A stretch of 23,766 nt of DNA from a virus, in IMG/VR virus record IMGVR_UViG_3300026211_000001, one strand, 5' to 3'. The position numbers and the translations under genes were made by a program. The notes below the pieces were generated by a model. That model was not told the DNA's origin, searched no databases, and was given only the letters and a program-made list of their open reading frames with translations. Of the stretch, positions 13,296 through 18,744 are shown one piece after another. Each line of letters begins with the position of its first letter. Position 1 is the stretch's first letter.

Positions 13296-13320
13296 CATAA
13301 GTATAATATATATTGCATTC
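13296..13320 (-). promoter_or_regulatory. Putative promoter upstream of nrdJ
   Basis: Minus strand GAATGCAATATATATTATAC in an 85-nt spacer; shares the ATATATAT core (13306-13313). Confidence 0.35.
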
Positions 13321-16990: not shown

Positions 16991-17749
16991 CTACTTATTA
17001 AATAATTCATCAAATGCTTCAGATGCATTTGTTACAGTTGTTGTCTGTTCCAAAGTGGCTTCTGTAGCTGAATCACTTTCTTTTGTAGTTGTCTCGTCAT
17101 CAGAGGGACTTAACCAATTTTGTAAAACTTCTGCAAGTTCATCATAAGACTGTTCCTGATAGATTTCTGTGATGTTCTTTTGATTTTCAAGAATACTTTC
17201 AAATACTGCCTTATTTTCAGTTACAGGAGTTTGATTTGGTTTTACACGAATATTTGTTTTTGGAAATGAAGATCCAACTTCTTCAGCTGTCTTGAACTCT
17301 ACTACTACATCACGACCATTTACGGGATCACTAATATCACCATAATCAGGGTCTGCTATAATACTTAAAAGTTCTTGATAAACTGTCTTACCAAAACCCC
17401 AGAATTTAACACCCTCTCCTTCTTCGCTTTTTACTACAACGGGAGCAAAAGTTCTCATCTTGGCTTCTAACTTTTTACCAAGTCTCCAATCTTCCCTATT
17501 TCCGGAAGATTTTAGTTTATCTGCGAACTCTTCAATCGGGTCTGGACGACCAAAACTGATAGGTGACAAATAACTCTTTCCGCCCAAGTCATAATGAAAA
17601 AATAACTCAATGAACGGAATTGATTTATTGTACTTATAAGGTACTATCCTTATTTGAGTTTTACCAGGCTGTGGTTTCCAAAGATTTGTTGTTCTGGTGT
17701 TTGTTGTTTGAAGTTGTTCTAATTTCTTACGAATTGCATCAATATCCAT
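16991..17749 (-). CDS. gp32: Single-stranded DNA-binding protein, T4 gp32-like
   Basis: LWKP...IRIVP, GVKFWGFGK.VY, DISDP..GRD, acidic tail ending FDELFNK; AGGAG upstream. Confidence 0.88.
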   Translation of the reverse strand: MDIDAIRKKLEQLQTTNTRTTNLWKPQPGKTQIRIVPYKYNKSIPFIELFFHYDLGGKSYLSPISFGRPDPIEEFADKLKSSGNREDWRLGKKLEAKMRTFAPVVVKSEEGEGVKFWGFGKTVYQELLSIIADPDYGDISDPVNGRDVVVEFKTAEEVGSSFPKTNIRVKPNQTPVTENKAVFESILENQKNITEIYQEQSYDELAEVLQNWLSPSDDETTTKESDSATEATLEQTTTVTNASEAFDELFNK

Positions 17750-17785
17750 TTTTTATTCTCCTATACATTTCATTTATTAATTAGT

Positions 17786-17803
17786 AATGATGTAACCATC
17801 ATT
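17786..17803 (-). promoter_or_regulatory. Perfect 7-bp hairpin in the gp32 leader
   Basis: AAUGAUG-GUUA-CAUCAUU on the minus strand, followed by an AU-rich stretch and the RBS. Confidence 0.4.
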
Positions 17804-17840
17804 CTGTAATATATATCAGCCAGATTCTAAAACCATCCAA
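17804..17840 (-). promoter_or_regulatory. Putative promoter for gp32-uvsX-rnh-gp41
   Basis: Minus strand TTTTAGAATCTGGCTGATATATATTA, just after a U-tract; resembles the gp45 upstream element. Confidence 0.4.
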
Positions 17841-17850
17841 GTTTTTTTGT

Positions 17851-17918
17851 AAAAAAAAAGTAGCTCATCGTTTTCACGTCTGGTGGTATGGTGGAGACTG
17901 AAAATAACGAACTACTTT
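17851..17918 (-). terminator. Long imperfect hairpin with C-rich loop and U9 tract (terminator or small RNA)
   Basis: AAAGUAGU/GCUACUUU, UCGUU/AACGA, UUCA/UGAA and GUCU/AGAC stems, loop CCACCAUACCACC, then 9 U (plus-strand A run 17851-17859). Confidence 0.6.
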
Positions 17919-17923
17919 AAAAT

Positions 17924-18331
17924 TTTGAAATTTTTGGGGGTGTGAAAATACCATTTCACATTGAGCCACTTTGATAGATTACTTCATATCTCGTTTCCGA
18001 AAGTTACTTCGATTCTCTCTCAATGCTATTAAACATCGTTGAGGCGAATACAATTTCTAACCGATTGCTTTAATCCTCAAAGAAGATTTATTCAGCCAGT
18101 TCTCAGGGAGATTTCCTTTCGGGTACTCCCAATGAAGCGAAAAAGTTGGTTTACTTTCTCAAGTAGTGTTGACTCAAACTCCCGCACGGACTGTCATCCT
18201 AAAAACACCAACATTTAGGTGCTGATTCTCTACCATAGAGGATTGGGATACATTACAAGCCTTTATCAAAACCTGTTGTTCAGTCAACCCCACAGAAAGG
18301 TGTACGGCCTTTCTGCTTTGCCAATTTCAAA
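17924..18331 (-). ncRNA. Candidate large structured non-coding RNA (~410 nt), family unassigned
   Basis: No ORF of 60 aa or more; 9-bp terminal stem, two 7-bp long-range stems, at least eight local hairpins including GAGA and GAAA tetraloops; promoter-like and terminator-like flanks. Strand inferred from the flanking signals and the GNRA loops. Confidence 0.7.
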
Positions 18332-18360
18332 TGTCAAAAAACTGTTGTCTATTACTATAG

Positions 18361-18400
18361 ACTGATATTATATATATAAACCAAAAACGCCAAAACGTGA
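18361..18400 (-). promoter_or_regulatory. Putative promoter of the ncRNA candidate
   Basis: Minus strand TTTTGGCG...TTTATATATATAATATC with a perfect TATAAT at 18367-18372 and the ATATATAT core at 18370-18377. Confidence 0.5.
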
Positions 18401-18414
18401 TTTTTTTTTAATCA

Positions 18415-18744
18415 TTAAAAAAAGTTGTCCAGTGCATTTAAAGCTGTTACTAAGGCGTATGATAAAATTCCCCCGTATCCAAAATATAACCATTTGTTCT
18501 CATACCAACTTGCCTTAACTAACTTAGCTTTCTTTTCTGTAATAGTTAAATCTTCTTCTAACGATGCAACCTTCTGATTAAGTAAATCTATTTCTAAAGT
18601 TTTTAAGCTATCTGAAATAGATAGAGAATCGGCTCTAACTTGTAATTCTTGTATATTTTTGGCAAGTTCATCCGCCTGTTCTTTAGTTAAAGTTGTTTGG
18701 GAAAACCCAAATGATAATATTAAAACAATTATTAGTTTCTTCAT
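18415..18744 (-). CDS. Exported coiled-coil protein with C-terminal hydrophobic anchor
   Basis: Signal peptide MKKLIIVLILSFGFS/Q, heptad-rich middle, C-terminal WLYFGYGGILSYALVTAL. Confidence 0.75.
   Translation of the reverse strand: MKKLIIVLILSFGFSQTTLTKEQADELAKNIQELQVRADSLSISDSLKTLEIDLLNQKVASLEEDLTITEKKAKLVKASWYENKWLYFGYGGILSYALVTALNALDNFF

What the first reader, a model, noticed from the sequence alone, without database searches (positions are those of the whole stretch)
17924..18331. Candidate novel ~410-nt multi-domain structured RNA with its own transcription signals
Seen in a 665-nt ORF-free gap of an otherwise gapless genome. Long-range pairings: terminal UUUGAAAUU/AAUUUCAAA (18331-18323 with 17932-17924); UUUGAUA/UAUCAAA (18270-18264 with 17976-17970); GUUGACU/AGUCAAC (18288-18282 with 18174-18168). 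The latter two cross each other, implying a pseudoknot or alternative folds. Local hairpins: CAGAAAGG/CCUUUCUG (18315-18293), CUCU/AGAG (18240-18228), CCUAAA/UUUAGG (18219-18198), UACUU-GAGA-AAGUA (18165-18152), GGGAG..CC-GAAA-GG..CUCCC (18130-18106), AAUCUUC/GAGGAUU (18088-18072), CUCAA/UUGAG (18043-18019), UGUGAAA/UUUCACA (17960-17941). Spot G+C is 24/60 and 28/60. TATAAT lies upstream and a hairpin with U9 downstream. Established: phages carry large ornate ncRNAs such as ROOL and GOLLD. I cannot match this one to a family. Inference: an abundant phage RNA scaffold, ribozyme or anti-defence decoy transcribed next to the SSB/recombination genes.
Basis: partly seen in the sequence, partly recalled or inferred. 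Interest (0 to 1): 0.88.

Follow-up and report, generated by a model that had tools for sequence, protein, structure and literature searches.

The report
Two-core manA-type phage RNA gene
The gap holds a real, conserved ~420-nt folded RNA of uncultured marine phages, but it is not a new family: it is an enlarged, two-core relative of the known manA RNA motif, and it looks like a separate RNA gene rather than a leader of the neighbouring SSB gene.

Summary
A structured RNA lies on the minus strand at about 18343-17924. I found 59 distinct full-length copies in IMG/VR viral contigs. Covariation is strong: 68 tested pairs are 95% paired, against 31-44% when partners are slid.

It is not family-less. 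The 3' half (18130-17937) matches Rfam manA (RF01745) at 39.8 bits, E 1e-8. That is below the gathering score of 55.2 here, but 7 homologous loci score 55.5-67.7.

The 5' half is a second, diverged manA-like core. One terminal stem, the manA-type G-run/C-run long-range helix and two further long-range helices enclose both cores. The canonical manA of phage P-SSM2 is a single 198-nt core.

Both crossing long-range pairs are not. A different pseudoknot is conserved (18082-18077 with 17974-17969).

An A+T-rich box upstream and a hairpin plus U-run downstream travel with the RNA into three gene contexts: SSB, Hsp20 and Mom-like. About half of related SSB loci lack the RNA.

My reading is a free-standing RNA gene, possibly self-assembling like manA RNAs in a 2026 preprint. 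Function is not shown, and I obtained no transcription data. It is a new variant of a known kind.

The parts
18365..18378 (-). Alternating T/A box containing TATAAT (18372-18367); candidate promoter of the RNA
   Evidence: Read. A ten-base T/A box (at most 1 mismatch) lies within 120 nt upstream in 56 of 56 distinct full-length copies with enough flank, in all three gene contexts. Similar boxes sit in two other minus-strand intergenic gaps of the window. Promoter activity is inferred, not shown.
18347..18362 (-). 5' hairpin between the box and the RNA body
   Evidence: -5.5 kcal/mol, z -3.8. The stem covaries among close relatives. In L033, L016 and L137 it carries an inserted module of about 95 nt; in L148 it is absent.
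18334..18343 (-). Nearly invariant ten-base U-rich stretch at the start of the conserved body
   Evidence: Columns 1-10 of alignment A2 are almost invariant across 27 distinct sequences. Its role is unknown.
18323..18331 (-). P0, 5' strand of the terminal stem; pairs with 17932-17924
   Evidence: An 8-12 bp duplex forms in all 24 distinct flank pairs, at -5.8 to -10.8 kcal/mol against -2 to -4 for shuffles, with A-U to G-C exchanges between clades.
18293..18315 (-). P1 hairpin
   Evidence: Pairs covary, for example GC:14 with AU:13 at one position. It corresponds to P1 of the manA model.
18287..18291 (-). Long-range helix, 5' strand (G-run); pairs with 17941-17937
   Evidence: 27 of 27 sequences paired, with two covarying positions (AU:20/GC:7 and GC:26/AU:1). 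It equals the G-run/C-run helix of the manA consensus.
18250..18284 (-). P3a module of core A: outer pairs, conserved purine-rich strand, inner hairpin
   Evidence: Helices are 91-100% paired with changes on both sides. It aligns to the matching part of the manA model at high posterior probability, but the whole 5'-half match scores only 11.3 bits.
18180..18248 (-). Junction A: closing stem P4a (18248-45 with 18183-80), P5a (18240-28), P6a (18221-06), P7a (18199-88, GACA loop)
   Evidence: Over the whole core-A alignment (junction A plus the P3a module) 94.1% of cells are paired, against 33-41% when partners are slid; covariation score 0.80 against 0.09-0.20.
18170..18177 (-). Helix X, 5' strand; pairs with 17968-17961
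   Evidence: A 7-10 bp duplex forms in all 14 distinct versions, with unrelated sequences between clades; -6.6 to -11.9 kcal/mol against -2 to -4 for shuffles. Twenty non-window-clade rows pair in register in A2.
18139..18160 (-). Linker hairpin between cores
Evidence: Homologous hairpins are seen in all clades of alignment A2.
18132..18137 (-). Helix Y, 5' strand; pairs with 17987-17982 and closes core B
   Evidence: 98.8% paired; 5 of 6 pairs change on both sides.
17937..18130 (-). Stretch matched by Rfam manA (RF01745): P1', P3b, junction B (P4b-P7b), P9 and the long-range 3' strand
   Evidence: 39.8 bits, E 1e-8, full model length, below the gathering score of 55.2. Homologous positions score 55.5-67.7 bits in 7 loci. 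The core-B alignment (17988-18101: P3b and junction B) is 99% paired, against 32-49% slid.
18077..18082 (-). Pseudoknot, 5' strand, in the loop of the P3b hairpin; pairs with 17974-17969
   Evidence: 27 of 27 sequences paired; two positions covary with three and four pair types. It crosses helix Y.
17969..17974 (-). Pseudoknot, 3' strand
17961..17968 (-). Helix X, 3' strand
17941..17960 (-). P9 terminal hairpin
   Evidence: 100% paired, GC:13 with AU:13 at one pair. It matches the last hairpin of the manA model.
17924..17932 (-). P0, 3' strand
17851..17915 (-). 3' hairpin with a conserved apical loop, then nine U; candidate intrinsic terminator, possibly also a functional 3' domain
   Evidence: -20 kcal/mol, z -5.8. 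The basal stem covaries while the apical nine-base motif is kept in distant clades. The motif lies downstream in 42 of 56 distinct copies, mostly 19-46 nt after the RNA.
16991..17749 (-). Downstream gene: gp32-like single-stranded-DNA-binding protein; a neighbour, not part of the RNA
   Evidence: Pfam PF08804 at E 2.3e-12; PHROG SSB families.

Best explanation
What is shown:
- The gap encodes a conserved, highly structured RNA of about 420 nt on the minus strand. It is about 510 nt if the 5' hairpin and the 3' hairpin with its U-run are included.
- It is related to the manA RNA motif (Rfam RF01745).
- It has two manA-like cores. Each has a P3 module and a junction with three hairpins.
- Both cores are nested inside one terminal stem (P0) and one manA-type long-range G-run/C-run helix.
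- Core B sits where a canonical manA has its simple penultimate hairpin. Helices X and Y enclose it, and a conserved pseudoknot ties it to the 3' tail.

What is inferred:
- It is a free-standing RNA gene, read from its own A+T-rich promoter box and ended at its own hairpin plus U-run.
- The RNA acts as an RNA particle rather than as a leader that controls the SSB gene.
- The most likely mode of action is folding into a rigid two-core body whose exposed conserved loops make loop-loop contacts. These contacts could be within the molecule or between copies. This follows by analogy with single-core manA RNAs, which a 2026 preprint reports to build pentamer-based decamers and a 60-mer cage through kissing loops.
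- What such a particle does for the phage is unknown.
For: Identity and structure:
- Rfam manA hit in the window, and hits above the gathering score at the same position in 7 homologous loci.
- Iterated nhmmer finds the whole element in 37 of 81 sequences. All 80 loci fetched after a pattern scan also carry it. In all there are 59 distinct full-length copies.
- Covariation. Long-range helices P0 and X.

Two related cores:
- A model built from core B finds core A at the right register in 15 loci at 12-20 bits. The local E-value is 9e-4 in L059.
- A model built from core A finds the window's core B at 22.3 bits, E 0.0033.
- The core-B model finds the canonical P-SSM2 manA at 37.8 bits, E 1e-6.
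- P-SSM2's manA is a single 198-nt core that fills the regA-purL gap.

Free-standing gene:
- The box and the 3' hairpin travel with the RNA.
- The same RNA sits before gp32, before Hsp20 (L148) and before a Mom-like gene (L137).
- The distance to gp32 varies from 176 to 800 nt. A small Cys-rich ORF or a 204-aa gene is inserted in some relatives.
- 37 related gp32 loci with at least 900 nt upstream have no manA-like core.
- L026 keeps the box and the terminator but lacks the RNA.
- A tRNA-Gly gene lies next to the RNA in two arrangements.
- I saw no conserved alternative pairing between the RNA and the terminator stem (by eye).
- No conserved ORF: lengths are 419-433 nt, and open frames of 43-91 codons fall in varying frames and strands.

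Assembly analogy:
- doi 10.64898/2026.07.01.735769.
- The loops of P5b and P7b are complementary in 23 of 27 sequences, and those of P5a and P6b in 19 of 27.
Against: - No transcription data.
- The window's own manA score is below Rfam's gathering score.
- The window's core A is barely recognised by the core-B model (3.9 bits). The core-A model does not find the canonical P-SSM2 manA.
- The P5a-P6b loop complementarity is absent in the window's own clade.
- Always lying upstream of a same-strand gene, and of non-homologous genes, is the pattern Weinberg et al. 2010 (PMC2864571) took as evidence for cis-regulation.
- The cage result is an unreviewed in vitro study of single-core RNAs at high RNA and Mg2+ concentrations.
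Confidence: 0.5

Rival explanations
1. It is a cis-acting riboswitch or attenuator of the manA class. The two-core aptamer senses a metabolite or physical signal and sets how much transcription reads through the hairpin plus U-run (17851-17915) into the SSB gene.
For: - manA was proposed as a riboswitch candidate because it lies in 5' UTRs of several non-homologous genes (PMC2864571).
- Here the RNA is always upstream of, and on the same strand as, a gene.
- An intrinsic-terminator-like hairpin lies between the RNA and the gene.
- The canonical P-SSM2 copy ends 16 nt before purL.
Against: - The terminator does not overlap the RNA. It is separated from it by 8 nt here, by about 70 nt in L022 and by about 150 nt in L001/L011. 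No conserved anti-terminator pairing was seen (by eye).
- A promoter-like site lies between the terminator and gp32, and a second T/A box at 17817-17807.
- Half of the related phages run the same SSB gene without the RNA.
- The apical loop of the 'terminator' is conserved in sequence, which is unusual for a plain expression platform.
- No ligand for manA has been reported in the papers found.
Confidence: 0.3
2. It is a trans-acting phage RNA with another activity: a decoy or sponge for a host defence or RNA-binding protein, or a ribozyme.
For: - It has the organisation of a free-standing gene.
- It is present in some related phages and absent in others, as is typical of accessory or counter-defence cargo.
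- It lies next to tRNA genes in some genomes.
Against: - Nothing points to a particular target or chemistry.
- No Rfam ribozyme or intron family matched.
- The conserved loops fit RNA-RNA contacts as well as they fit protein binding.
Confidence: 0.12
3. It is the translational operator through which the SSB protein represses its own mRNA, as T4 gp32 does through a 5' pseudoknot followed by an unstructured A/U-rich stretch.
For: - The downstream gene is gp32-like.
- T4 gene 32 autoregulation through its leader is established knowledge.
Against: - A terminator-like hairpin and about 100 nt separate the RNA from the start codon.
- The RNA also occurs before Hsp20 and Mom-like genes.
- Half of the homologous SSB genes lack it.
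- A small hairpin (17802-17787) followed by an A/U-rich leader next to the start codon is a better operator candidate.
Confidence: 0.03

Closest known systems
manA RNA motif (Rfam RF01745; Weinberg et al. 2010, PMC2864571); canonical example in Prochlorococcus phage P-SSM2 at 142837-143034
   Same: - P1 hairpin, then a G-run that pairs with a C-run at the 3' end.
- P3 module with the conserved purine-rich strand.
- A junction with three hairpins, and a terminal P9 hairpin.
- Marine phage setting, with Hsp20/ibpA-type and nucleotide-metabolism neighbours.
- Scores: Rfam model E 1e-8 on the window and above threshold in homologues; my core-B model hits the P-SSM2 copy at E 1e-6.
   Different: - About 420 nt instead of about 195 nt.
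- A second, diverged core.
- An extra terminal stem P0.
- The simple penultimate hairpin is replaced by helices X and Y, which enclose a whole core.
- A conserved pseudoknot from the P3b loop.
- Its own terminator-like hairpin between the RNA and the next gene, whereas the P-SSM2 copy abuts purL.
- The window copy is below Rfam's gathering score.
manA RNA-only assemblies (cryo-EM preprint, doi 10.64898/2026.07.01.735769)
   Same: Same family. Complementary loops at the positions of the reported L5-L7' kissing contact are kept in core B.
   Different: - Those RNAs are single-core and under 200 nt, and were studied only in vitro.
- Nothing is known about assembly of the two-core form.
- The window's clade lacks the P5a-P6b loop complementarity seen in the other clades.
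Large ornate bacterial and phage ncRNAs: ROOL, GOLLD, OLE
   Same: Several hundred nucleotides, multi-domain, often phage- or prophage-borne, sometimes next to tRNA genes, function unknown.
   Different: No sequence or structure match to these Rfam families. This RNA is smaller and is built from manA-type cores.
Tandem riboswitch aptamers, for example the glycine riboswitch
   Same: Two related structured domains in one RNA.
   Different: Here the cores are nested inside shared closing helices rather than lying side by side. No expression platform overlaps them, and no ligand is known.
T4 gene 32 translational operator
   Same: It lies upstream of a gp32-type SSB gene and contains a pseudoknot.
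   Different: - Far larger.
- Separated from the start codon by a terminator-like hairpin.
- Found before unrelated genes, and absent from half of the homologous SSB loci.

Membership tests
manA RNA motif (Rfam RF01745) | Score at or above Rfam's gathering threshold (55.2 bits) | tested here: not met
   Window 39.8 bits, E 1e-8, full-length match; no hit at gathering level. Homologous positions score 55.5-67.7 bits in L022, L008, L016, L027, L052, L036 and L080.
manA RNA motif (Rfam RF01745) | P1 hairpin followed by a G-run that pairs with a C-run after the last hairpin | tested here: met
   18315-18293, and 18291-18287 with 17941-17937. 27 of 27 paired, two covarying positions. The two strands are about 350 nt apart, because they enclose both cores.
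manA RNA motif (Rfam RF01745) | P3 module: two or three outer pairs, a conserved purine-rich strand, an inner hairpin, a conserved UAA-G strand | tested here: met
   Present twice, at 18284-18250 and 18096-18067. Helices are 91-100% paired with changes on both sides. Aligned to the model.
manA RNA motif (Rfam RF01745) | Multi-stem junction with three hairpins (P5, P6, P7) closed by P4 | tested here: met
   Junction A is at 18248-18180 and junction B at 18064-17991. The core alignments that contain them are 94% and 99% paired, against 32-49% for slid controls.
manA RNA motif (Rfam RF01745) | Conserved complementary loops of P5 and P7 | tested here: inconclusive
   In core B the two loops have different letters from the consensus but remain complementary in 23 of 27 sequences. 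In core A most clades keep the consensus P5 loop, but its P7 loop is GACA. The window's own P5a loop differs.
manA RNA motif (Rfam RF01745) | A simple penultimate hairpin between the junction and the last hairpin | tested here: not met
   The model's pairs there are mismatched even in the best-scoring homologue. Instead helices X and Y enclose a linker hairpin and a whole second core.
manA RNA motif (Rfam RF01745) | Lies in the 5' UTR directly upstream of a gene | tested here: inconclusive
   Always upstream of a same-strand gene, but 176-800 nt from it, with a terminator-like hairpin in between. The P-SSM2 copy ends 16 nt before purL.
ROOL, GOLLD, OLE, tmRNA, RNase P, 6S, group I/II introns | Match to the Rfam covariance model or the ARAGORN tmRNA model | tested here: not met
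   No such family among matches up to E 10 in 17700-18460 or at gathering level in the window. No tRNA or tmRNA.
T4 gene 32 translational operator | A structured element followed by an unstructured A/U-rich stretch that runs into the ribosome-binding site of gene 32 | tested here: not met
   The 420-nt RNA ends 174 nt before the start codon, with a hairpin plus U-run between them. The RNA is absent from 37 homologous loci.

The most novel reading that the evidence does not exclude
Marine phages encode, as a separate and mobile RNA gene, a covalently fused two-core version of the cage-forming manA RNA. The fusion would give each chain two sets of kissing loops, and so a new natural RNA-only assembly (a cage, lattice or scaffold) made during infection. 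If so, manA RNAs are structural RNAs rather than riboswitches.
Probability: 0.3. Interest if true: 0.8.

Novelty: new variant of a known kind. Interest (0 to 1): 0.6.

Why it matters
manA has been an orphan riboswitch candidate since 2010. A 2026 preprint now reports that single-core manA RNAs build RNA-only cages in vitro.

This element matters for three reasons:
- It shows that nature also makes a nested two-core form, twice the size of the canonical motif.
- That form is widespread in marine viral contigs (59 distinct copies found here).
- It is packaged like a gene of its own, with a box upstream and a hairpin plus U-run downstream. It moves between SSB, Hsp20 and Mom-like contexts, is present in some phages and absent in close relatives, and sometimes lies next to a tRNA gene.

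That organisation is new evidence on the open question of whether manA RNAs act in cis or as particles. It also offers a defined construct, about 18362-17851, for transcription mapping and cryo-EM.

Tried and rejected
- DNA similarity: BLASTN of the gap and of the L148 copy against 50,697 phage records found nothing. The nearest held virus record, G001, lacks the region. The window's own assembly is not held.
- Other RNA families: apart from manA, the permissive Rfam scan gave only weak matches (E 1 or above) to unrelated families, which I read as chance. No tRNA or tmRNA.
- Coding: no conserved ORF on either strand.
They are absent or not compensated in other clades, and they are mutually exclusive with covarying helices.
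- Side-by-side tandem model: rejected. Core A has no P9 or C-run of its own, and P0, the long-range helix and helix X span both cores.
- Local alternative for the G-run (pairing with 18247-18245): possible. However, the one sequence with a changed G-run (L053) compensates only in the long-range partner.
- Kissing between the P5a loop and the apical loop of the 3' hairpin: only 4-6 nt of complementarity, not consistently kept. Not claimed.
- Which core is ancestral: core B plus P9 is closer in sequence to the P-SSM2 manA (z 3.8-7.1 in four of the five sequences compared, 2.2 in L080) than core A plus P9 (z -0.1 to 3.7). The core-A model does not find P-SSM2 manA. The direction of the duplication or insertion is left open.
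- Earlier tandem or two-core description: a search of the Weinberg 2010 supplements for the core-A signature found none. The stored manA alignment file is truncated.
- Mutual-information and diagonal scans were too noisy to use alone.

Full report
**Setting.** All long ORFs of the window lie on the minus strand. They are packed tightly, and the only large gap is 17750-18414. Downstream on that strand are a gp32-like SSB (16991-17749), a RecA/UvsX-like protein, a 5'-3' exonuclease and a DnaB-like helicase. The upstream neighbours have no family match. The SSB is 68-79% identical to proteins on hundreds of IMG/VR contigs. It is at most 49% identical to any cultured phage (Microcystis phage Mel-JY01; Flavobacterium phages at 39.5%). 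The window is therefore from an uncultured marine phage lineage.

**Observation.** The minus-strand fold of 17924-18331 is more stable than shuffles (z -3.47). G+C is 39.5%, against 33.3% for the window. TATAAT is at 18372-18367. A -20 kcal/mol hairpin at 17915-17860 is followed by nine U.

**Family.** At gathering level Rfam finds nothing. The permissive scan gives manA (RF01745) at 18130-17937 on the minus strand: 39.8 bits, E 1e-8, full model length. In relatives fetched through the SSB gene, the homologous position scores 55.5-67.7 bits in seven loci; the threshold is 55.2. The 3' half is therefore a diverged manA RNA. No other described family matched, and there is no tRNA or tmRNA.

**Homologues.** Iterated nhmmer finds the whole ~420-nt element, not only the manA part, in 37 of 81 sequences. 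A pattern taken from core B picked 81 stretches in IMG/VR. All 80 newly fetched loci carry the full element. In all there are 59 distinct full-length copies. No ORF is conserved: lengths are 419-433 nt, and open frames of 43-91 codons fall in varying frames and strands.

**Structure.** I used MAFFT alignments of 27 distinct copies and counted pairs.
- The core-A alignment (P3a module plus junction A) has 94.1% of cells paired, against 33-41% when partners are slid. Its covariation score is 0.80, against 0.09-0.20.
- The core-B alignment (P3b module plus junction B) has 99.0% paired, against 32-49%.
- On the full-length alignment, 68 pairs in 14 helices are 95.2% paired, against 31-44%. Forty-four pairs change on both sides.
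- The terminal stem P0 and helix X are shifted between clades in the alignment, so I checked them sequence by sequence. Both form in every distinct version, with unrelated letters between clades and energies far below shuffles.

The conserved fold, in window coordinates, runs as follows:
- P0: 18331-18323 with 17932-17924.
- P1: 18315-18293.
- Long-range helix: 18291-18287 with 17941-17937.
- Core A: P3a at 18284-18250 and junction A at 18248-18180.
- Helix X: 18177-18170 with 17968-17961.
- Linker hairpin: 18160-18139.
- Helix Y: 18137-18132 with 17987-17982.
- Core B: P1' at 18130-18106, P3b at 18096-18067 and junction B at 18064-17991.
- Pseudoknot: the P3b loop at 18082-18077 with 17974-17969.
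- P9: 17960-17941.

Seven of the eleven coincide with this fold. Four are not kept in other clades and compete with covarying helices:
- the two crossing long-range pairs;
- 18219/18198;
- 18165/18152.

Its conserved partner is the P3b loop, not the P3a loop.

**Relation to canonical manA.** Prochlorococcus phage P-SSM2 has a canonical manA of 198 nt (181.6 bits). It fills the regA-purL gap, so it is single-core. A covariance model built from core B finds it at 37.8 bits, E 1e-6.
- Evidence that the two cores are related: the core-B model finds core A at exactly the expected register in 15 loci, at 12-20 bits. The local E-value is 9e-4 in L059, but the window scores only 3.9 bits. The reciprocal core-A model finds the window's core B at 22.3 bits, E 0.0033.
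- The arrangement is nested, not side by side. The G-run after P1 pairs with the C-run after P9, across both cores. Core B sits where the canonical motif has its simple penultimate hairpin, and those model pairs are mismatched even in the best homologue.
- Core B is closer in sequence to P-SSM2 manA than core A is in four of the five sequences compared. The core-A model does not reach P-SSM2. I leave open which core is ancestral.
- I found no earlier description of such a form, but that search was limited.

**Gene organisation.**
- Upstream: a ten-base T/A box lies within 120 nt in 56 of 56 distinct copies with enough flank.
- Downstream: the 3' hairpin's conserved apical motif follows the RNA in 42 of 56, mostly 19-46 nt after its end.
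- Contexts: the box, the RNA and the hairpin with its U-run occur together before gp32, before Hsp20 on a 216-kb contig (L148), and before a Mom-like gene (L137).
- Distance to gp32: 176 to 800 nt. Inserted between them in some relatives are a small Cys-rich ORF, a 204-aa gene or a further ~145-nt non-coding stretch.
- Absence: of 73 related gp32 loci with at least 900 nt upstream, 37 have no manA-like core. L026 keeps the box and the terminator with only about 100 nt between them.
- tRNA neighbours: a tRNA-Gly(UCC) gene lies about 80 nt upstream in L001 and about 95 nt downstream in L137 and L144.
- Terminator coupling: I saw no conserved pairing that would couple the RNA to the terminator stem (by eye).
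- gp32's own signals: a sigma-70-like site and a second T/A box lie between the terminator and gp32.

These points favour a free-standing RNA gene over a leader. They are inference only, because I obtained no transcription data.

**Function.** Weinberg et al. 2010 (PMC2864571) proposed manA as a riboswitch candidate, because it lies upstream of several non-homologous genes. A 2026 preprint (doi 10.64898/2026.07.01.735769) reports that single-core manA RNAs form decamers and a 60-mer icosahedral cage in vitro. These are built from pentamers held by kissing loops such as L5-L7'. In the two-core RNA the P5b and P7b loops stay complementary in 23 of 27 sequences. The P5a loop is complementary to the P6b loop in 19 of 27, but not in the window's own clade.

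I rate the readings as follows:
- a structural, possibly self-assembling RNA particle: about 0.5;
- a read-through riboswitch: 0.3;
- another trans-acting role, such as a decoy or ribozyme: 0.12;
- an SSB operator: 0.03.

**Verdict.** The RNA is real and well supported. It is not a new family. It is a new, larger architectural variant of manA with gene-like organisation, and its function is still unknown.

Noticed in passing
L033:2214-2310, L016:1960-2056, L137:2935-3000; L026:2330-2450, L025, L020, L027:384-536: A conserved module of about 95 nt occurs in two settings. In some loci it is inserted in the 5' hairpin just before the big RNA. In others it is a separate ~120-nt element upstream, whose ends mimic the big RNA's terminal stem and G-run/C-run helix (MFE -27.9 kcal/mol). 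It may be another small structured RNA.
   Followed up: partly
L001:1737-1880, L011:2508-2650, L013, L035: A conserved non-coding insert of about 145 nt sits between the end of the RNA and the terminator hairpin in some relatives. L022 has a different insert of about 70 nt there. Both look structured. No Rfam match at E 0.5 or better.
   Followed up: no
L001:1165-1237, L137:3511-3583, L144:262-334: A tRNA-Gly(UCC) gene lies directly beside the RNA, upstream in one arrangement and downstream in another.
   Followed up: partly
window 17787-17817: A second T/A box (17817-17807), a small hairpin (17802-17787) and then an A/U-rich leader precede the SSB start codon. This arrangement recalls the T4 gene 32 operator and is a better candidate for SSB autoregulation than the large RNA.
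   Followed up: no
window 13302-13314: The same kind of T/A box lies in the 85-nt gap upstream of the 11270-13237 gene. It may be a recurrent promoter motif of this phage.
   Followed up: partly
L011, L013, L035, L039 (alignment A1 columns 765-935); L036:2303-2917: Relatives carry extra genes between the RNA's terminator and the SSB gene. One is a small Cys-rich ORF (about 60-70 aa). In another clade it is a 204-aa protein with a methyltransferase-like glycine motif. L036 also has an N6-adenine-methylase-like gene upstream of the RNA.
   Followed up: no
L026:2285-2325 and L027:405-445: A tRNA-like 3' fragment (T-arm and acceptor-like sequence) that ARAGORN does not call lies upstream of the small element. 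It may be a decayed tRNA gene.
   Followed up: no
window 17860-17915; L080:2770-2835; L148:8195-8265: The apical loop of the terminator-like hairpin keeps a nine-base motif across distant clades while the stem below it covaries. The hairpin may therefore be a functional 3' domain of the RNA as well as a terminator.
   Followed up: partly
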